A program made the position numbers and the translations under genes. 64,000 nucleotides of DNA, from the NCBI RefSeq assembly GCF_900078365.1, contig NZ_LT598653.1:1837290-1901289 (forward strand), in the 5' to 3' direction. The stretch comes from an uncultured Sphingopyxis sp. Its GTDB lineage: Bacteria > Pseudomonadota > Alphaproteobacteria > Sphingomonadales > Sphingomonadaceae. Positions 10,512 to 40,282 of the stretch are shown one piece after another. The first letter of the stretch is position 1. The number at the start of each line of letters is the position of its first letter. The notes below the pieces were generated by a model, which saw only the letters and a list, made by a program, of their open reading frames with translations, searched no databases and was not told the origin of the DNA.

Positions 10512-11420
10512 TCAGCCGTCGGGCGCCTCCTCGCTCGGTGATGCGAGCGCGAGCCTGTCGAGCGGACTGACGATCGACCGTACCGTCTTGGTCGCGACCT
10601 GCGTGTAGAAGGCGGTGGTGTTTAGCTTGGCATGGCCGAGCAGCGCCTGGATGACGCGGATATCGACACCGTCCTCAAGCAGGTGGGTGGCGAAGCTGTG
10701 GCGCAGGGTATGCGGTCCGACGCGCTTGTCGATGTCCGCCGCCTCCGCGGCTTCGACGACGACGCGGTAGAGCTGCCGCGTGCTGATCGGCGCCGCGGCG
10801 CTCTGTCCGGGGAACAGCCAGCCATCAGGCAGCAAGATGCCCTGCTGCCGTCCGGCGCGCCACCAGTCGCGCAGCAGCAGGAGCAAGCCTTGGGGCAGCA
10901 TCGCGTTGCGGTAGCGTCCGCCTTTGCCGCGCTCGATCCGGAGCAGCATCCGCTTGCTGTCGACGTCGCTGACCTTGAGCGCCGCCACCTCCGCAACGCG
11001 CAAGCCGGCACCATAGGCGACCGACAGGGCTGCCTGGTGCTTGAGCGAGCGCGTGGCATCGAGCAGCCGCTTCACCTCGGCCATGGTCAACACGACCGGG
11101 ATCTTGCGGGCCTGCTTGGTGCGGATCAGCTTACGCGCGAGATCGGGGCGGTCGAGTGTGTGCGTGAAGAAGAACCTGAGCGCGCCAACGATGCTGTTCA
11201 TCGTTGGCGCCGGCACGCCCGCCTGGTGCTGTTCGAACTGGAACTGCCGGATGTCCTCTGTGCTCGCGGTGTGGGGCGAGCGACGCAGCCAGGTCGCGAA
11301 CCGTCCGACGTCGCGAAGATAGTTACGCTGCGTCTCCTTGGAGAACCCGCGCAAGGCCATATCGTCGATCAGGCGCTGGCGCAGCGGGCTGATCGGGCCA
11401 ATCTGGATAAGCTCGTTCAT
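10512..11420 (-). CDS. Tyrosine recombinase/integrase (XerD-like) with N-terminal SAM-like domain
   Basis: Catalytic set GLRVAE (R), GKGG (K), HTLRH (HxxR), LGHA (H), TAFYTQ (Y). Confidence 0.93.
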   Translation of the reverse strand: MNELIQIGPISPLRQRLIDDMALRGFSKETQRNYLRDVGRFATWLRRSPHTASTEDIRQFQFEQHQAGVPAPTMNSIVGALRFFFTHTLDRPDLARKLIRTKQARKIPVVLTMAEVKRLLDATRSLKHQAALSVAYGAGLRVAEVAALKVSDVDSKRMLLRIERGKGGRYRNAMLPQGLLLLLRDWWRAGRQQGILLPDGWLFPGQSAAAPISTRQLYRVVVEAAEAADIDKRVGPHTLRHSFATHLLEDGVDIRVIQALLGHAKLNTTAFYTQVATKTVRSIVSPLDRLALASPSEEAPDG

Positions 11421-11422
11421 CG

Positions 11423-11449
11423 TTCGACTCCTCAGTTGAAGGAGTCGAA
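11423..11449 (-). promoter_or_regulatory. Perfect 10-bp hairpin that includes the recombinase Shine-Dalgarno
   Basis: mRNA UUCGACUCCU-UCAACUG-AGGAGUCGAA-CG-AUG. Confidence 0.6.
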
Positions 11450-11696
11450 AGGGTCTGCCTGCTGCAGTCCGCGTTCAATCAGGCGCCGCGCTCGCTGGGC
11501 CGCTTTATATCGCCGCTAACACCAATCCGCGGAGCGGTTCGTGCAACGGCCATTAGCTGCAATACCGATTGTCGTCGATGAGCTCCTGGATGATGGTACC
11601 GAGAACCACCTCGGGTAGGTGTATTCGGCATAGTTCCACCCCGTTGTGTGCGGCTTGCCCGATCAGCTTCTTCGGGTCCTTCGGATAGGTTAGCGA

Positions 11697-35884: not shown

Positions 35885-36052
35885 TCGCATTTTGCGCGTA
35901 GCGGCGCGTCGCGGCGATTAACGTCCCGGCAAGTTCCGCTGTTGCAACGCCATTTGCCGTGACAGGAAGCGCGGCGAAAATTCGTAAAATGCACGAAAAG
36001 GGCGTCGGGGCTTCTCGACGCCCTTTTCATTTGCACGCGCCATTCTGGCCGC

Positions 36053-36496
36053 ATGACCGGCTCCAGCAGAATTTCGCGGCGCGTTCGCAAGATGGGCGTC
36101 ACAGCCCTTACCCTGGCGCGCGGGGAGCGCGGCGCCGCCATCGTCGAAATGGCATTGGTGTTGCCGCTGCTCCTCGCGTTGCTGATGGGCATCCTCGTCT
36201 ACGGCCAATATTTCCTGCTCGCGCACAATGTGCAGCAGGCCGCCAACGACGGTGCGCGCGCCGCGATCGTCGGCCTCGACGCCGCCGACCGTAGCGCGGT
36301 CGCGACCCGCGCGGTCGCGCGCAGCCTGCAGGCCGTGGGTGGCGCGCACAGCGTCGCAATATCCGAAACGAGCGAGGCGATCACCGTCGCCGTCACTTAC
36401 ACCGCGCCGCAGGGCAGCCTCCTGCGCTCGAGCCTCGTTCCGTCGCCCGACCATGTCATCCGCGCCCGCGCGACCTTCGAATTGCCGGTCGATTGA
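36053..36496 (+). CDS. TadE/TadG-like pseudopilin
   Basis: GERGAAIVEMALVLPLLLALLMG...QQAANDGARAA; start could be 36092. Confidence 0.85.
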   Translation: MTGSSRISRRVRKMGVTALTLARGERGAAIVEMALVLPLLLALLMGILVYGQYFLLAHNVQQAANDGARAAIVGLDAADRSAVATRAVARSLQAVGGAHSVAISETSEAITVAVTYTAPQGSLLRSSLVPSPDHVIRARATFELPVD

Positions 36497-38127
36497 TCGT
36501 GGCGCGCCCGTCCTTGCTTCGCCGCCTCGTCCGCAGCCGCCGCGCGAGTATCAGCATCACGACCGCCTTCGGCATGGCGATGCTGATCGGCTCGGCCGCC
36601 TTCGCGGTCGATCTCGGCTCGCTCTATCTCGATCGCCGTAAATTGCAGGGGATCGCCGACGCTGCGGCGATGGCGGCGGCGGGACGGCCCGGCGAGGAGC
36701 GCGCGGCGGCTGAGCGGATCATCGCGGCCAATTGCGATTGCGGCATCACCATCGCCGCGCTCACGCCGGGCACCTACACCGCGGATCCTTCGGTTCAGGC
36801 CGAACAGCGCTTCACCGGCGGCGGCGCGTCGCCGAACGCGATACGCGTCACGCTGACGCGCGATCGCCCGCTGTTCTTCGGCCGCTTCCTGACCGGCCGG
36901 AAGGACAGCATCATCCGCGCGACCGCGACCGGCGCACGGCGCGGCTATGCCGCCTTTTCGCTCGGATCGCGCGTCGCGGCGCTGAACGGCGGCCTGCCCA
37001 ACGCGCTGCTGTCGGCGCTGACCGGCAGCGAGGTCAATCTGTCGGTGATGGACTATAATGCGCTCGCCAGCACCGACATCGACCTGCTCGCCTTTTCGGA
37101 CGCGCTTCGCACCGAGCTCGATGCCGATGTGCTGACCTTCGGTCAGACGCTGAACACGCAGGCGACGCTGCCGCAGGTGGTATCGGCGCTGGCGAGCGCG
37201 TCGGACGGGCAGGCGGCAAGCGCGCTTGAGCAGATCGCCGATGCCGCGCTGCCGCATGCGCTGCTGCCGTCGCGCGCGATCGACCTTGGTCCGCGGTCGT
37301 CGAGCATCCGCATCGACGCCGCCAATCCGGTCAAGGTCAATGCGCTCAGCCTGCTGCGCACGATGCTGCTCCTCGGCAATGCGAACCGCCAGGTCGACCT
37401 GTCGCTCGCGGGCAATCTCCCCGGCGGATCGGGCGTCAATGTCGCGCTGCTCGTCGGCGAGCCGCCCGCCGACTCGCCGCTCATCGCGGTGACCGACACC
37501 AATGACGTCATCGTCCGCACCGCACAGGTCCGGCTGAAGGTCGACACGCGGGTTTCTACGCCGCTCGCCAGCGTCCATGTGCCGCTGCTCGCCGAGCTCG
37601 GATCGGCGTCGGCGCGGATCACCGACATCGATTGTGCGCCGGACAGCAGCGCCGCGGTCTCGCTCGGCGTCGTCACCTCGCCGGCGATGGTGGCGATCGG
37701 CACGGTTCCCGACGCCGATTTCCAGGACATGCAGCGCCCGCTCGACCCCCAGCCCGCGCGCGTGGTGAAACTGCCGCTCGTCAGCGTCGATGCGCGCGCC
37801 GAGCTCAATCTGTCCGACCTCGATGAAAAGCCGGTCGCATTTTCGCGCAGCGAGATCGACGAGGGGCGGGTGAAGACGGTGTCGAGCACGGGGCTGGTCG
37901 CGGGCGCGGCGGGGTCGCTCGCCGACGAGATGGAGCTCGACGTCAACGTTCTCGGCCTCGGCCTGAACCTGAAAGCGTTGACGAGCGTGGTCGGCGAGAC
38001 CGTCGCGCTTGCCGCGCCGGTGCTCGATAGCGTGCTGTCGGACCTCACGGGATTGCTCGGCTTGCAGGTCGGGCAGGCCGATACGCGGGTCAACGCGCTG
38101 CGCTGCGGCAAGGCGCGGTTGGTCTGA
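36493..38127 (+). CDS. TadG-like protein with N-terminal Tad pseudopilin domain
   Basis: AFAVDLGSLYLDRRKLQGIADAAAMAAA; long Leu-rich C-terminal region; overlaps the upstream stop by 4 nt. Confidence 0.82.
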   Translation: MIVARPSLLRRLVRSRRASISITTAFGMAMLIGSAAFAVDLGSLYLDRRKLQGIADAAAMAAAGRPGEERAAAERIIAANCDCGITIAALTPGTYTADPSVQAEQRFTGGGASPNAIRVTLTRDRPLFFGRFLTGRKDSIIRATATGARRGYAAFSLGSRVAALNGGLPNALLSALTGSEVNLSVMDYNALASTDIDLLAFSDALRTELDADVLTFGQTLNTQATLPQVVSALASASDGQAASALEQIADAALPHALLPSRAIDLGPRSSSIRIDAANPVKVNALSLLRTMLLLGNANRQVDLSLAGNLPGGSGVNVALLVGEPPADSPLIAVTDTNDVIVRTAQVRLKVDTRVSTPLASVHVPLLAELGSASARITDIDCAPDSSAAVSLGVVTSPAMVAIGTVPDADFQDMQRPLDPQPARVVKLPLVSVDARAELNLSDLDEKPVAFSRSEIDEGRVKTVSSTGLVAGAAGSLADEMELDVNVLGLGLNLKALTSVVGETVALAAPVLDSVLSDLTGLLGLQVGQADTRVNALRCGKARLV

Positions 38128-38218
38128 TCCCGCGCACAGTGGCGCCATTAGGGACATAATGGCGCGCCCGATCATCGCTCGCGGACCCTATAATGGTCGA
38201 AAGAATTTGGGGGCAATC

Positions 38219-39112
38219 GTGGCGACCGCACAAGAACCACAGCGCGTATCGGCGGCGGATTTCATCCGCGGCTTTGCCAATTGGCGATTGCAGTCGGCGC
38301 GCAAGCCCGTCGTCGTGACGCATCATGGCAAGGACGCGCATGTACTGATCTCGCTCGACGATTATCGCCGTCTGGGCGACAGGACGGCGCGCGATGTCGC
38401 CGGGGCTTCGGATCTGCTCCAGAGCTCGCTCGCCGGCCTCGTCGAATCGGTCCGCGACGCGGTGATCCTGATCGACCGGCAGCGGCGCATCGTCGCGGTC
38501 AATCCGGCGGCGTCCGATATGCTCGAAAGGCCGGCGGCGGGCCTGATCGGTCAGGAATTGACGGCCGCGCTGCCGTCGCTCGGCGACAGCCTTATCCTTC
38601 ATCACATCGTCCGCCTGCTCGACCATAGGGAGAGGTTTTCGGGCGATTTGCCCGGGCTGCTGCGACCGCGCCAATGGCTGCACGTCGATCTGGTTCCGGC
38701 GCCCGTCGGCGGCGCGATCATGCTGCGCGACGTCAGCGAAGCGATGGAGGATTTCGCGGCGGGCGGCATGCGCGCCGCGATGCTGGACGCCGTCGAGAGT
38801 GACGGCGGGATCGGCCACGCCCGCATTTCGGTCCGCGAAACGGTCGAGGCAGCGAACGCGATGCTCACCGCGCTGGTCGGCGTCGATCCCGCGGCGATCC
38901 GCCGCGTCCGCTTTTCCGCGCTACTGGCGGTAGGGCGGCGCGCCGCCTTCGTCGAGGCGCTCGAATCGGTCTTCCGCTCGGGCGATTCCGCCCGCGTCGC
39001 GTCGCAGATGGTGACGCGCGACGGATCGGCCATCGATGTCATATTGACGATCGCGGAAGTGCGCGGTCCCTATGCCAGCGAAGGCGCGGTCGTGCTTGTC
39101 AGGCGCTCCTAA
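38219..39112 (+). CDS. Phd/YefM-like domain fused to two PAS-like domains
   Basis: GTG start with a GGGG RBS. N-terminus VSAADFIRGF...KPVVVTHHGKDAHVLISLDDYRRL; PAS LVESVRDAVILIDRQRRIVAVNPAASDMLE; second PAS/PAC ending TRDGSAIDVILTI. Confidence 0.72.
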   Translation: MATAQEPQRVSAADFIRGFANWRLQSARKPVVVTHHGKDAHVLISLDDYRRLGDRTARDVAGASDLLQSSLAGLVESVRDAVILIDRQRRIVAVNPAASDMLERPAAGLIGQELTAALPSLGDSLILHHIVRLLDHRERFSGDLPGLLRPRQWLHVDLVPAPVGGAIMLRDVSEAMEDFAAGGMRAAMLDAVESDGGIGHARISVRETVEAANAMLTALVGVDPAAIRRVRFSALLAVGRRAAFVEALESVFRSGDSARVASQMVTRDGSAIDVILTIAEVRGPYASEGAVVLVRRS

Positions 39113-40185
39113 AACCAGCGCCCGCGCTCGATCGCCGTGCCGTTCGCGGGCAGCGAGAAATATTCGCCATCCTCGCCGACGACGACCGGCCCGTCGAAAT
39201 GATCCTCGGCGCCGTCGAGGAAGGCCGCGTTCAGATAGGGCGAGGGCATCGACGGCACGACATGGCTGAGCACGAGCATCTTCACCCCCGCGGCGCGCGC
39301 GCTGTCCGCCGCTTGCGCCGGGCTGGCATGATAGTCGAGAATGTCGCGCATGATCTGCGCGGTCTGCTTGCGGCCCGCCCGGTCGAGCTGCGCGGCGAGG
39401 GTTTTCACCATCTTCGGCTGGAGCGCCTCGTGGATCAGCAGGTCGGCGCCCTTCGCGGCGGCTTCGAGCGATTTGGACGCCGCCGTGTCGCCGCTGATCA
39501 CGACGCTGCGCCCCTTGTAGTCGAAGCGATAGCCGACCGAGGGCTGCACCGGGCGATGATCGACCGCGAAGGCGGTGACGCGCAAGCCTTCGGCCTCATA
39601 AACGACGCTCGGTGAAGCCGGAACCTCGAAGGGCACCGCAACCGCTCCGGCGGCGGCGGGCGGCGTGATCTTCATGCCATGATGCGCGGTGCGATACCCG
39701 TTGTCGAGCGCATAGGCGGCGTTGAAGCCCGCGATCACGCCCTCGACCCCGGTGGGACCGTGGACGGGCAGGGGAGTCTTGTTCCCGCTGGCGGTCCAGC
39801 GCAGCAGCATCATCGGGCCCATGCCGTCGATATGGTCCGAATGATAATGGGTCAGGAAAAGCGCGCCGATGCGCCCGTTGGGCAGGCCCATCTGCGCGAT
39901 ATTGCGCGCCGAGCCTTCGCCCGCATCGACGACGAACATCGCCTTGCCCGCGATGACGACGGTGCAGGATGCCGCGCGCTCGCGCGCCGGGAGCGGCGAT
40001 CCGGTGCCGCACAGGCCGACGTGCAATCCATCGGGCAGAGCAGCGAGCGGGTCGCGCGCGATGTTGCGCTGGGCCGCGCGCTCGAAGAGCCACATGCCGA
40101 TAGGCCGCTGGAACAGCCATGCCGACAATGCCCCGACGCCGATGATCGCCGCGATCCACAGCGCGGCTCGATGATTTCTGGTCAT
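39109..40185 (-). CDS. MBL-fold metallo-hydrolase (RNase Z/arylsulfatase-like) with N-terminal membrane anchor
   Basis: LCGTGSPLP, VDAGEG, THYHSDHIDG, VISGDT, LIHEA, LSHVVP. Confidence 0.88.
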   Translation of the reverse strand: MTRNHRAALWIAAIIGVGALSAWLFQRPIGMWLFERAAQRNIARDPLAALPDGLHVGLCGTGSPLPARERAASCTVVIAGKAMFVVDAGEGSARNIAQMGLPNGRIGALFLTHYHSDHIDGMGPMMLLRWTASGNKTPLPVHGPTGVEGVIAGFNAAYALDNGYRTAHHGMKITPPAAAGAVAVPFEVPASPSVVYEAEGLRVTAFAVDHRPVQPSVGYRFDYKGRSVVISGDTAASKSLEAAAKGADLLIHEALQPKMVKTLAAQLDRAGRKQTAQIMRDILDYHASPAQAADSARAAGVKMLVLSHVVPSMPSPYLNAAFLDGAEDHFDGPVVVGEDGEYFSLPANGTAIERGRWF

Positions 40186-40282
40186 TCTTACCCCCTCCCG
40201 GTCCGCACGCGGCTTCTGCACATGCTGGACAAGCCGGGAGGTTAGGCGCAATCATCCGGTCAGGGAAGGTTGCAAGTGGCAA

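What the first reader, a model, noticed from the sequence alone, without database searches (positions are those of the whole stretch)
38219..39112. Phd/YefM antitoxin-like DNA-binding domain fused to tandem PAS domains, with no toxin
The first ~52 residues follow the Phd/YefM pattern: a short beta strand and helix, PVVVTHHGK, then VLISLDDYRRL. Two PAS-like domains follow, with no kinase, GGDEF or other output. No toxin gene is adjacent, since the next gene is a convergent MBL hydrolase. The inference is an antitoxin DNA-binding module repurposed as a one-component, ligand-sensing transcription factor. It sits just downstream of the tadE-tadG pair and might regulate surface attachment.
Basis: partly seen in the sequence, partly recalled or inferred. 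Interest (0 to 1): 0.65.

Follow-up and report, generated by a model that had tools for sequence, protein, structure and literature searches.

The report
Antitoxin-type DNA binder fused to PAS sensors
A toxin-less protein that joins the DNA-binding half of a Phd/YefM antitoxin to two PAS sensor domains is real, is confined to one bacterial family, and almost always sits beside surface-adhesion genes, so it is probably a new kind of signal-sensing switch for attachment.

Summary
Window 38219-39112 (+) encodes a 297-aa protein. Residues 8-52 adopt the Phd/YefM antitoxin fold: Pfam PF02604 E=1.2e-6, and about 45 of the top 50 Foldseek PDB hits are Phd/YefM-type antitoxins. Two PAS domains follow, with no other output domain and no toxin gene.

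Comparative genomics adds three findings.
- The architecture forms a family of more than 100 clusters at 50% identity. In my samples it is confined to Sphingomonadaceae.
- It is tightly linked to adhesion genes. All 24 sampled genomes with this orphan tadE-tadG minor-pilin pair also have the protein, and 22 carry it within about 1 kb, in four gene arrangements. Other members lie divergent to trimeric autotransporter adhesins, a linkage gained at least five times.
- The Phd domain is 98% identical across Sphingopyxis, against 74-78% for the PAS domains.

A degenerate dyad, TTGCG-N7-CGCAA, is moderately enriched in the shared upstream regions.

Best reading (about 0.6): a dimeric one-component transcription regulator in which PAS sensing replaces the toxin as modulator of a Phd/YefM operator-binding domain, controlling tadE-tadG here. 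DNA binding, ligand and regulon are untested. I class it as a new variant of a known kind.

The parts
38219..39112 (+). Phd-PAS-PAS gene (297 aa plus stop). The start is GTG 38219.
   Evidence: The start is supported by 21 homologous loci. Homologues were found.
38219..38374 (+). Residues 1-52: Phd/YefM-type domain (b-a-a-b-b-a), probably for dimerisation and DNA binding. A13, R17, F19, P30, H36 and G37 are near-invariant.
   Evidence: Pfam E=1.2e-6. AF2 models. Foldseek hits are nearly all Phd/YefM antitoxins. Family alignment. 97.7% identity across Sphingopyxis.
38375..38449 (+). Residues 53-77: variable linker, modelled as a continuation of helix a3 into the N-cap of PAS1. pLDDT is lower here (59-68).
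   Evidence: 50% identity within the genus. Length varies across the family alignment.
38450..38734 (+). Residues 78-172: PAS domain 1.
   Evidence: PAS_4, PAS_9, PAS and PAS_8 hits. AF2 PAS fold at 81-171. The closest solved sequence is the 3fg8 PAS domain, E=1.6e-16.
38735..38806 (+). Residues 173-196: inter-PAS helix.
   Evidence: AF2 helix at 173-195. The full model resembles the PpsR and bHLH-PAS tandem-PAS arrangement.
38807..39109 (+). Residues 197-297: PAS domain 2. The protein ends here with no output domain.
   Evidence: Second PAS_4 stretch. AF2 fold at 198-296.
38189..38213 (+). Possible own expression signals: TATAAT at 38189-38194 and ribosome-binding GGGGG at 38209-38213.
   Evidence: Sequence. 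A TATAAG-like element and a GGAGG lie at similar distances in other Sphingopyxis. The consensus promoter scan did not call it.
36053..36496 (+). tadE-like minor pilin gene. The true start is possibly ATG 36092.
   Evidence: PF07811 E=5e-14. Homologue alignments begin at residues 19-27.
36493..38127 (+). tadG-like large minor pilin gene (544 aa). It is the conserved partner of the Phd-PAS gene.
   Evidence: PF13400 and PF09977. Co-occurrence 24/24 and adjacency 22/24. Synteny holds in all 17 Sphingopyxis carriers examined.
35981..35997 (.). Inverted repeat TTCGT-N7-ACGAA in the conserved block upstream of tadE. It is the window's weak counterpart of the candidate dyad TTGCG-N7-CGCAA.
   Evidence: Assignment as an operator is an inference.
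36000..36027 (+). Conserved terminator-like hairpin GGGCGTCG-N8-CGACGCCC followed by TTTT. It lies between the GST gene and tadE, about 25 nt before the tadE ATG.
   Evidence: Its role is unresolved: GST terminator or tadE leader.

Best explanation
The gene encodes a cytoplasmic, homodimeric one-component regulator. Its N-terminal Phd/YefM-type domain provides dimerisation and operator binding. In a true antitoxin a disordered C-terminal tail binds the toxin. Here that tail is replaced by a linker helix and two PAS domains.

Proposed mechanism: a signal sensed by the PAS domains (ligand unknown) changes the geometry or oligomeric state of the Phd dimer. That changes occupancy of a site in the promoter region of the neighbouring adhesion genes. 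In this genome and throughout Sphingopyxis the target would be the orphan tadE-tadG minor-pilin ('pilus tip') pair, and probably the regulator's own gene. In other genera of the family the target would be a divergently transcribed tadE-tadG pair or a trimeric autotransporter adhesin.

Shown here: fold, architecture, absence of a toxin, family distribution, gene linkage, and the differing conservation of the domains.

Inferred: DNA binding, the direction of regulation, the signal, and the dimer.
For: (1) Phd/YefM fold of residues 8-52.
- Pfam E=1.2e-6.
- AF2 models with pLDDT 93 and 87.
- About 45 of the top 50 Foldseek PDB hits are Phd/YefM-type antitoxins, including DNA-bound Phd and YefM.
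- 54% identity over the b2-b3-a3 core to a canonical Phd antitoxin of the same genome that pairs with a PIN toxin.

(2) The conserved positions fall where YefM needs Arg10 and Arg31 for operator binding (PMC4803016).
- hhalign places Arg31 on His35, next to invariant His36-Gly37.
- Near-invariant Arg17 lies in helix a1, within one residue of the Arg10 position. This comes from my hand alignment.

(3) Within Sphingopyxis the Phd domain is 97.7% identical, against 74-78% for the PAS domains and 50% for the linker. This is expected if it contacts an invariant macromolecule such as DNA.

(4) Gene linkage.
- In 301 genomes of the family, the tadG-like gene (E<1e-50) is present in 24, and all 24 carry the Phd-PAS gene.
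- 22 of the 24 have it within about 1 kb.
- Four arrangements occur: divergent (the commonest), co-directional downstream, co-directional upstream, and convergent.
- Of 39 non-Sphingopyxis loci, 19 adjoin tadE-tadG and 7 adjoin a divergent trimeric autotransporter adhesin.
- On the protein tree the adhesin linkage needs at least 5 independent changes.
- Divergent regulator-target pairs with 150-450 bp spacers are the classic layout of local transcription factors.

(5) A 17-bp dyad, TTGCG-N7-CGCAA, was derived from 9 divergent spacers. It scores at least 10 bits in:
- 6/116 control intergenic regions;
- 7/27 held-out Phd-PAS upstream regions;
- 11/17 Sphingopyxis spacers upstream of tadE;
- 1/17 tadG-phd spacers.

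(6) The N-terminal DNA-binding domain followed by PAS-A and PAS-B parallels bHLH-PAS factors, and the tandem PAS parallels PpsR. Both are among the top structural matches.
Against: - No DNA binding has been demonstrated.
- A first, unbiased search for shared palindromes or k-mers found nothing above the null.
- The dyad was found by eye before it was tested. Its enrichment is modest. It may belong to another regulator.
- In this window the dyad scores only about 7 bits.
- The positions matching YefM Arg31 carry His rather than Arg.
- The Pfam and NCBIfam scores sit at or just under the curated thresholds.
- About a third of family members lie in housekeeping contexts with no adhesin nearby, next to rpoD, a GyrB-family topoisomerase subunit gene, a helicase or NifU.
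- No cofactor signature is conserved in the PAS domains.
Confidence: 0.6

Rival explanations
1. The Phd/YefM-type domain serves only as a dimerisation module. The protein acts through protein-protein contacts, for example by sequestering or activating another regulator, a kinase or a component of the Tad machinery. It would be a PAS signalling adaptor and not a DNA-binding factor.
For: - Single- and tandem-PAS proteins without output domains are known to act as adaptors (established knowledge).
- No statistically strong operator was found.
- His replaces Arg at the YefM Arg31 position.
- A third of members are not next to adhesin genes.
Against: - The Phd domain, not the PAS part, is the most conserved region. 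Its invariant residues sit on the face used for DNA binding in YefM and Phd.
- The predominant divergent orientation to the linked genes suggests cis-acting control through a shared promoter region.
- A dyad motif is moderately enriched there.
Confidence: 0.22
2. It is still a working antitoxin. It neutralises a toxin encoded elsewhere in the genome, and the PAS domains make neutralisation depend on a signal.
For: - NCBI names at least one orthologue a 'prevent-host-death family antitoxin' (P0065).
- One canonical Phd locus in this genome is followed by only a 53-aa PIN-like remnant. This shows that TA pairs decay here.
Against: - In Phd/YefM antitoxins the toxin is bound by the C-terminal tail (PMC4803016). 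That tail is absent here and replaced by PAS domains.
- No toxin gene lies next to any of the 56 loci examined.
- The gene is vertically conserved with chromosomal synteny and is not mobile.
Confidence: 0.03
3. It is a DNA-binding regulator, but its targets are elsewhere, for example the cpa/tad machinery about 36 kb away or a global regulon. Its position beside tadE-tadG would then reflect co-inheritance and not control of those genes.
For: - CpaB lies about 36 kb downstream of the gene.
- In this window the tadE upstream region matches the candidate motif only weakly.
- Members in housekeeping contexts exist.
Against: - Adjacency is kept through at least four different gene arrangements.
- Linkage to a different class of adhesin genes arose at least five times. 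Co-inheritance alone does not explain this.
Confidence: 0.12

Closest known systems
Phd (phage P1) and YefM (E. coli, S. aureus, M. tuberculosis) type II antitoxins, Pfam PF02604
   Same: The N-terminal b-a-a-b-b-a fold is the same: TM 0.8 and rmsd 1.4-2 A over about 50 residues. Sequence similarity is detectable. In Phd and YefM this domain dimerises and binds the operator.
   Different: - There is no C-terminal toxin-binding tail.
- There is no toxin gene.
- The protein is 297 aa, against about 75-90 aa.
- The family signature is xHG(R/K) where YefM has Arg31.
- It is chromosomal, vertically inherited and linked to adhesion genes, not to a toxin.
SpoVT (Bacillus subtilis): an AbrB/MazE-type swapped-hairpin DNA-binding domain fused to a GAF domain. 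NikR: a ribbon-helix-helix domain plus a Ni-binding regulatory domain. (From my own knowledge.)
   Same: The design principle is the same. A small dimeric DNA-binding fold otherwise typical of type II antitoxins is joined to a small-molecule sensor domain, giving a toxin-independent transcription factor.
   Different: The DNA-binding fold differs: Phd/YefM here, against AbrB/MazE or RHH. The sensor differs too: tandem PAS, against GAF or an ACT-like domain. I know of no characterised regulator that uses the Phd/YefM fold this way, and four full-text searches found none.
bHLH-PAS transcription factors (HIF, ARNT, AHR, NPAS) and PpsR/CrtJ
   Same: The domain order is the same: a dimeric DNA-binding domain followed by PAS-A and PAS-B. 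Alternatively, multi-PAS plus a DNA-binding domain, as in PpsR. These are the top structural matches of the full model, and there is a weak TIGR02040 hit.
   Different: The DNA-binding domains are unrelated (bHLH or HTH). The resemblance is analogous, not homologous, beyond the PAS fold. PpsR carries its HTH at the C-terminus.
Earlier scan note e1-4688807: a Phd/YefM-like domain at the start of a PAS/histidine-kinase/receiver protein in another genome
   Same: A Phd-like N-terminal domain is followed by PAS, with no toxin (AI note).
   Different: That protein has kinase and receiver outputs and this one has none. I did not see that architecture in my 401-genome class sample, and I did not examine that locus.

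Membership tests
Phd/YefM antitoxin family (PF02604 / TIGR01552) | N-terminal b-a-a-b-b-a dimerisation and DNA-binding fold | tested here: met
   AF2 secondary structure. About 45 of the top 50 Foldseek PDB hits are Phd/YefM-type antitoxins.
Phd/YefM antitoxin family (PF02604 / TIGR01552) | Score at or above the curated family threshold | tested here: inconclusive
   PF02604 scores 28.6 bits against 29.8, and 29.8, flagged 'over cut-off', in the genome scan. TIGR01552 scores 20.7 against 20.8. Only profile positions 24-52 of 74 align.
Phd/YefM antitoxin family (PF02604 / TIGR01552) | C-terminal, intrinsically disordered toxin-binding segment | tested here: not met
   After residue 52 come a linker helix and two PAS domains.
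Phd/YefM antitoxin family (PF02604 / TIGR01552) | Adjacent cognate toxin gene (Doc, YoeB, RelE/ParE or PIN), usually overlapping downstream | tested here: not met
   The neighbours are TadG-like and an MBL hydrolase. None of the 56 homologous loci has a toxin gene. By contrast, the genome's own canonical Phd genes each have an overlapping PIN-like gene, one of them a 53-aa remnant.
Phd/YefM antitoxin family (PF02604 / TIGR01552) | Binds a palindromic operator and autoregulates | not testable with these tools
   Only a moderately enriched candidate dyad, TTGCG-N7-CGCAA, was found. The YefM-type TGTACA core is not present upstream.
PAS domain superfamily | PAS fold: a five-stranded antiparallel sheet with flanking helices, above the Pfam threshold | tested here: met
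   PAS_4 scores 46.8 bits against 23.1, in two stretches. There are two PAS folds in the model, and the structural matches are tandem-PAS proteins.
PAS domain superfamily | Known cofactor signature (LOV Cys motif, FixL-type haem His, flavin-binding residues) | tested here: not met
   No conserved Cys or His occurs in either PAS domain of the 62-sequence alignment. The nearest solved sequence is an uncharacterised PAS domain, 3fg8.
One-component signal transduction regulators (sensor plus DNA-binding domain in one protein, no phosphotransfer) | Input domain and DNA-binding output domain in one polypeptide, with no kinase or receiver | tested here: met
   The architecture is Phd-like plus 2 PAS, with no HisKA, HATPase, REC, GGDEF or EAL domain.
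One-component signal transduction regulators (sensor plus DNA-binding domain in one protein, no phosphotransfer) | Demonstrated sequence-specific DNA binding modulated by a signal | not testable with these tools
   This needs EMSA, DAP-seq or ChIP-seq, and identification of the ligand.

The most novel reading that the evidence does not exclude
This is the founding member of a lineage-specific family of adhesion switches. In it the allosteric logic of Phd/YefM antitoxins, where the toxin tunes operator binding through the C-terminal tail, has been rewired so that a tandem-PAS sensor takes the toxin's place. The same regulator type has been recruited repeatedly to different classes of surface adhesins: Tad pilus tip modules and trimeric autotransporters. 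This implies a common environmental cue that decides which adhesin a sphingomonad displays.
Probability: 0.4. Interest if true: 0.72.

Novelty: new variant of a known kind. Interest (0 to 1): 0.6.

Why it matters
Four reasons, if the reading is right.

1. It would be the first regulator I am aware of in which the Phd/YefM antitoxin fold serves as the DNA-binding output of a ligand-sensing one-component system. That would extend the SpoVT and NikR precedent to a third antitoxin fold. It would also give a natural experiment on how antitoxin allostery can be re-coupled to a sensor.

2. It would give a handle on how orphan TadE-TadG 'tip' modules of Tad pili are controlled. Recent work proposes these as interchangeable functional tips (PMC12075869), but their regulation is unknown. 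The same would apply to trimeric autotransporter adhesins in sphingomonads.

3. There is an annotation point. These proteins are named only 'PAS domain-containing protein', or wrongly 'prevent-host-death family antitoxin'. TA-prediction pipelines will count them as orphan antitoxins.

4. The tight three-gene module makes the hypothesis directly testable in tractable strains.

Tried and rejected
1. A second word-indexed protein search with the family alignment returned only Sphingopyxis orthologues again. It added no distant members.

2. A profile search of the N-terminal alignment against PDB sequences was dominated by spurious hits to designed 'Pizza' repeat proteins. These match through the 'V(Y)VTDHG' word. 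True YefM and RelB hits reached only E of about 0.03. The fold comparison settled the question instead.

3. An unbiased search for shared inverted repeats (arms 4-6, spacers 0-12) and shared 7- or 8-mers in 21 upstream regions found nothing above shuffled controls.

4. Exact patterns such as GCGGA-N5-CGC or TGCG-N7-CGCA were enriched less than 2-3-fold, on tiny counts. Only a position weight matrix with proper intergenic controls gave a moderate signal.

5. I looked for the YefM-type TGTACA operator core upstream of the gene. It is absent.

6. I checked a class-level hit that began at profile position 32 in a 796-aa open frame, as a possible Phd-PAS-kinase. It is an internal PAS domain of a multi-PAS kinase with no Phd domain.

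8. Literature searches for Phd/YefM-PAS fusions, orphan Phd transcription factors, or PAS regulators of tadG in sphingomonads found nothing relevant. The tadGE1E2 cluster reported as repressed by anoxia in Sphingopyxis granuli TFA has a different gene order and is probably the genome's other tadG locus.

9. I considered and rejected a mobile-element or TA-island origin. Synteny GST-tadE-tadG-PhdPAS is conserved in all 17 Sphingopyxis carriers.
Full report
**1. What is there**

Window 38009-39112 (+) is one open frame. GGGGG lies at 38209-38213 and TATAAT at 38189-38194. In 21 homologous loci from the same genus and from other genera, the conserved protein begins 3-10 codons before the motif 'QEPQRVSAADF', behind a GGAGG-like site. 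Upstream of that the frames diverge or are closed by stop codons. The Phd-like segment is therefore translated. The 317-aa database model starting at ATG 38159 (P0002) is probably too long.

**2. Domains**

Pfam finds PAS_4 (E=4e-12, two stretches) and PhdYeFM_antitox.
- PhdYeFM_antitox scores E=1.2e-6, 28.6 bits against a gathering score of 29.8, with residues 28-57 aligned to profile positions 24-52.
- NCBIfam TIGR01552 scores 20.7 against 20.8.
- The six-frame genome scan scores the same site at exactly the Pfam cut-off.

An AlphaFold2 model built on a 62-sequence family alignment is confident (pLDDT 93.3). Its elements are:
- b1 8-11, a1 12-17, a2 19-26, b2 31-35, b3 38-43;
- a long helix from 46 to 77;
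- PAS1 81-171, a helix 173-195, and PAS2 198-296.

A separate model of residues 1-72 (pLDDT 86.6) was compared with the PDB. About 45 of the top 50 hits are Phd/YefM-type antitoxins. They include:
- YefM 2a6q (E=7.5e-4);
- 2odk;
- M. tuberculosis YefM and RelB1;
- S. aureus YefM bound to DNA;
- phage P1 Phd bound to its operator (4zm0, TM 0.80, rmsd 1.7 A).

The whole model matches tandem-PAS proteins such as PpsR, bHLH-PAS factors and LOV-PAS. No kinase, receiver, GGDEF, EAL or HTH domain is detected.

**3. No toxin**

The gene is flanked upstream by a TadE-like gene (36053-36496) and a TadG-like gene (36493-38127). Downstream lies a convergent MBL-fold hydrolase (39109-40251, minus strand) whose 3' end overlaps the stop codon. 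There is no room for a toxin gene.

The same genome has two canonical small Phd/YefM antitoxins, of 83 and 80 aa. Each is followed by an overlapping PIN-like gene, and one of those is only a 53-aa remnant. The 80-aa antitoxin is 54% identical to the window protein over the b2-b3-a3 core. This points to the kind of antitoxin from which the domain was derived.

**4. The family**

- Full-length homologues of about 290-320 aa, covering query residues about 5-296, occur in 17 of 25 Sphingopyxis genomes (61-91% identity).
- They occur in 25 of 112 sampled genera of the same GTDB family at 25-35% identity.
- A search of 1.84 billion cluster representatives gives 273 clusters at E<=1e-10. More than 100 of them are full length.
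- None was found in 16 genomes from other families of the order.
- In a 401-genome sample of the class, the family profile gives full-length matches only in the window's genome and one other genome of the same family.
- Elsewhere in that sample the profile splits. It hits PAS domains inside large sensor proteins, and Phd-only segments in 75-140-aa open frames at E 1e-10 to 1e-17.

In these samples the fusion is therefore a Sphingomonadaceae invention. Its N-terminal profile finds stand-alone open frames of antitoxin size.

Sources name the proteins 'PAS domain-containing protein', and once 'prevent-host-death family antitoxin'.

Near-invariant residues are A13, R17, F19, P30, H36 and G37 in the Phd part, D86, N95 and A98 in PAS1, and R206, R241 and G289 in PAS2.

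**5. Gene neighbourhood, the main new result**

All 17 Sphingopyxis carriers examined have GST-tadE-tadG-PhdPAS in the same order.

In other genera the same TadE-TadG pair is again next to the gene, but usually divergently transcribed about 150-450 bp away.

I searched the same 301 family genomes with the TadG-like protein.
- 24 genomes have a strong match (E<1e-50).
- All 24 also carry the Phd-PAS gene.
- In 22 the two lie within about 1 kb.
- Four arrangements occur: divergent, co-directional downstream as in Sphingopyxis, co-directional upstream, and convergent.

The contexts of the 39 non-Sphingopyxis loci are as follows:

| Context | Loci |
|---|---|
| Adjoining tadE-tadG | 19 |
| Adjoining a divergently transcribed trimeric autotransporter adhesin (YadA stalk, head and anchor domains) | 7 |
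| Adjoining an RTX-repeat protein | 1 |
| Adjoining an outer-membrane barrel protein | 1 |
| Beside regulators or housekeeping genes (rpoD, a GyrB-family topoisomerase subunit, DEAD helicase, NifU, RecQ) | 11 |

On a maximum-likelihood tree of 43 members, TadEG linkage is spread through the main clade. Linkage to autotransporter adhesins requires at least five independent changes. Adjacency that survives rearrangement and is regained with a second class of adhesin gene argues for a functional, cis-acting connection.

The pair is an orphan. The genome's CpaB gene lies about 36 kb further on, outside the window, and a second TadG-like gene lies elsewhere. Recent work proposes that TadE/F/G minor pilins form interchangeable tip complexes that give Tad pili their specific function (PMC12075869; CpaL in Caulobacter, PMC12607857).

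**6. Evidence bearing on DNA binding**

- In YefM, Arg10 and Arg31 are essential for operator binding (Bailey and Hayes 2009, as summarised in PMC4803016).
- hhalign places Arg31 on His35 of the window protein, next to invariant His36-Gly37.
- Near-invariant Arg17 lies in helix a1, within one residue of the Arg10 position by my hand alignment. hhalign did not resolve this part.
- Among 117 Sphingopyxis cluster representatives, the Phd domain is 97.7% identical to the window protein. PAS1 is 74%, PAS2 78% and the linker 50%.

An unbiased search for shared palindromes or k-mers upstream found nothing above chance.

By inspection I then noticed a 17-bp dyad, TTGCG-N7-CGCAA with an A/T-rich centre, in 9 divergent spacers. 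One example is TTGCGGAGAATCCGCAA beside an autotransporter adhesin. Another is ATGCGGATATTACGCAT beside tadE. A weight matrix built from those 9 sites gave these results:

| Region set | Regions scoring at least 10 bits |
|---|---|
| Composition-matched control intergenic regions | 6 of 116 |
| Held-out Phd-PAS upstream regions | 7 of 27 |
| Sphingopyxis spacers upstream of tadE, at two conserved blocks | 11 of 17 |
| Sphingopyxis tadG-phd spacers | 1 of 17 |

This is a moderate signal and partly post hoc. In this window the best matches reach only about 7 bits. The corresponding conserved block carries a different inverted repeat, TTCGT-N7-ACGAA, at 35981-35997. I treat the motif as a candidate operator, not as a finding.

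**7. Mechanism proposed**

The most likely reading (about 0.6) is a dimeric one-component transcription regulator.
- The Phd/YefM-type domain forms the dimeric DNA-binding unit.
- The toxin-binding tail of an antitoxin has been replaced by a linker helix and two PAS domains.
- A signal sensed by the PAS domains alters operator occupancy in the promoter region of the adjacent adhesion genes.
- In Sphingopyxis the motif-like elements lie upstream of tadE and not directly upstream of the regulator. This fits tadE-tadG-PhdPAS acting as an autoregulated unit, although the gene may also have its own promoter (the TATAAT at 38189).

The signal is unknown. No LOV cysteine, haem histidine or flavin signature is conserved. 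The closest solved PAS sequence is an uncharacterised domain (3fg8).

The rivals are scored in their own section:
- a PAS adaptor that uses the Phd domain only to dimerise;
- a DNA-binding regulator with targets elsewhere;
- a trans-acting antitoxin.

**8. Comparison with known systems and novelty**

The protein shares the fold of Phd/YefM antitoxins but fails two defining features, the toxin-binding tail and the cognate toxin. It should not be filed as an antitoxin.

In design it resembles SpoVT (AbrB/MazE-type domain plus GAF) and NikR (RHH plus a metal-sensing domain). In domain order it resembles bHLH-PAS factors. These comparisons rest on my own knowledge.

I found no paper that describes a Phd/YefM-PAS regulator or any regulator of orphan tadE-tadG pairs in sphingomonads.

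An earlier AI note from this scan reports a Phd-like domain at the head of a PAS/kinase/receiver protein in another genome. I did not test it.

I rate the finding a new variant of a known kind, with interest about 0.6. The architecture alone is a modest curiosity. The tight and repeatedly re-established linkage to two classes of adhesin genes makes it a concrete, testable regulatory hypothesis.

**9. Limits**

- All functional statements are inferences from sequence, predicted structure and gene context.
- My gene calls in fetched loci are crude, based on GC3.

Noticed in passing
window 36000-36027 (hairpin) with A-tract 35996-35999: A terminator-like hairpin, GGGCGTCG-N8-CGACGCC C plus TTTT, lies between the GST gene and tadE, only about 25 nt before the annotated tadE ATG. 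It is conserved in most Sphingopyxis species and shows a compensatory G/C change in the stem. It could be the GST terminator or a leader or attenuator of tadE. If it is a terminator, tadE has almost no room for its own promoter.
   Followed up: partly
window 35886-35898: A near-palindrome, CGCATTTTGCG, lies directly after the GST stop codon. In other Sphingopyxis the same position reads TGCG-N7-CGCA, for example TGCGTAATTTGCGCA. It is one of two conserved blocks that match the candidate dyad.
   Followed up: partly
window 38159 vs 38219: The public gene model for this protein (317 aa, ATG 38159) is probably 20 codons too long. Comparative data favour GTG 38219.
   Followed up: yes
window 36053 vs 36092: The tadE-like ORF probably starts at the internal ATG 36092 (MGVTALTLARGERGAAIVE...). 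Alignments to homologues from other genera begin at residues 19-27, and the first 13 codons overlap conserved non-coding-like sequence.
   Followed up: partly
window 39109-40251 (-): The MBL-fold hydrolase convergent to the Phd-PAS gene is missing at this position in S. macrogoltabida (L027), where the acyl-CoA dehydrogenase genes follow directly. It is present in G020 (L047). It is therefore a variable insertion within an otherwise syntenic region.
   Followed up: partly
L001 1501-1903 (G000:C1 about 11217-11620): One of the genome's canonical Phd antitoxin genes is followed by only a 53-aa PIN-like ORF. This toxin is probably truncated or decaying, which would leave an orphan antitoxin.
   Followed up: no
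L038, L039, L040 (genome G234): One genome carries three paralogues of the Phd-PAS protein. One is convergent to tadG-tadE, one lies next to a Crp/FNR-family regulator, and one lies next to a MarR-family regulator.
   Followed up: partly
L033 7308-12176: Downstream of one adhesin-linked Phd-PAS gene lie a stand-alone GAF-domain protein and a 1437-aa multi-PAS hybrid histidine kinase. This may be part of the same signalling neighbourhood.
   Followed up: no
G000:C1:1911684-1912475 (about 10 kb beyond the window end): A CpaB/RcpC gene (TIGR03177, E=6e-62), which probably marks the Tad/Cpa pilus machinery locus, lies about 36 kb downstream of the orphan tadE-tadG-PhdPAS trio. A second TadG-like gene lies at G000:C1:3417110.
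   Followed up: no
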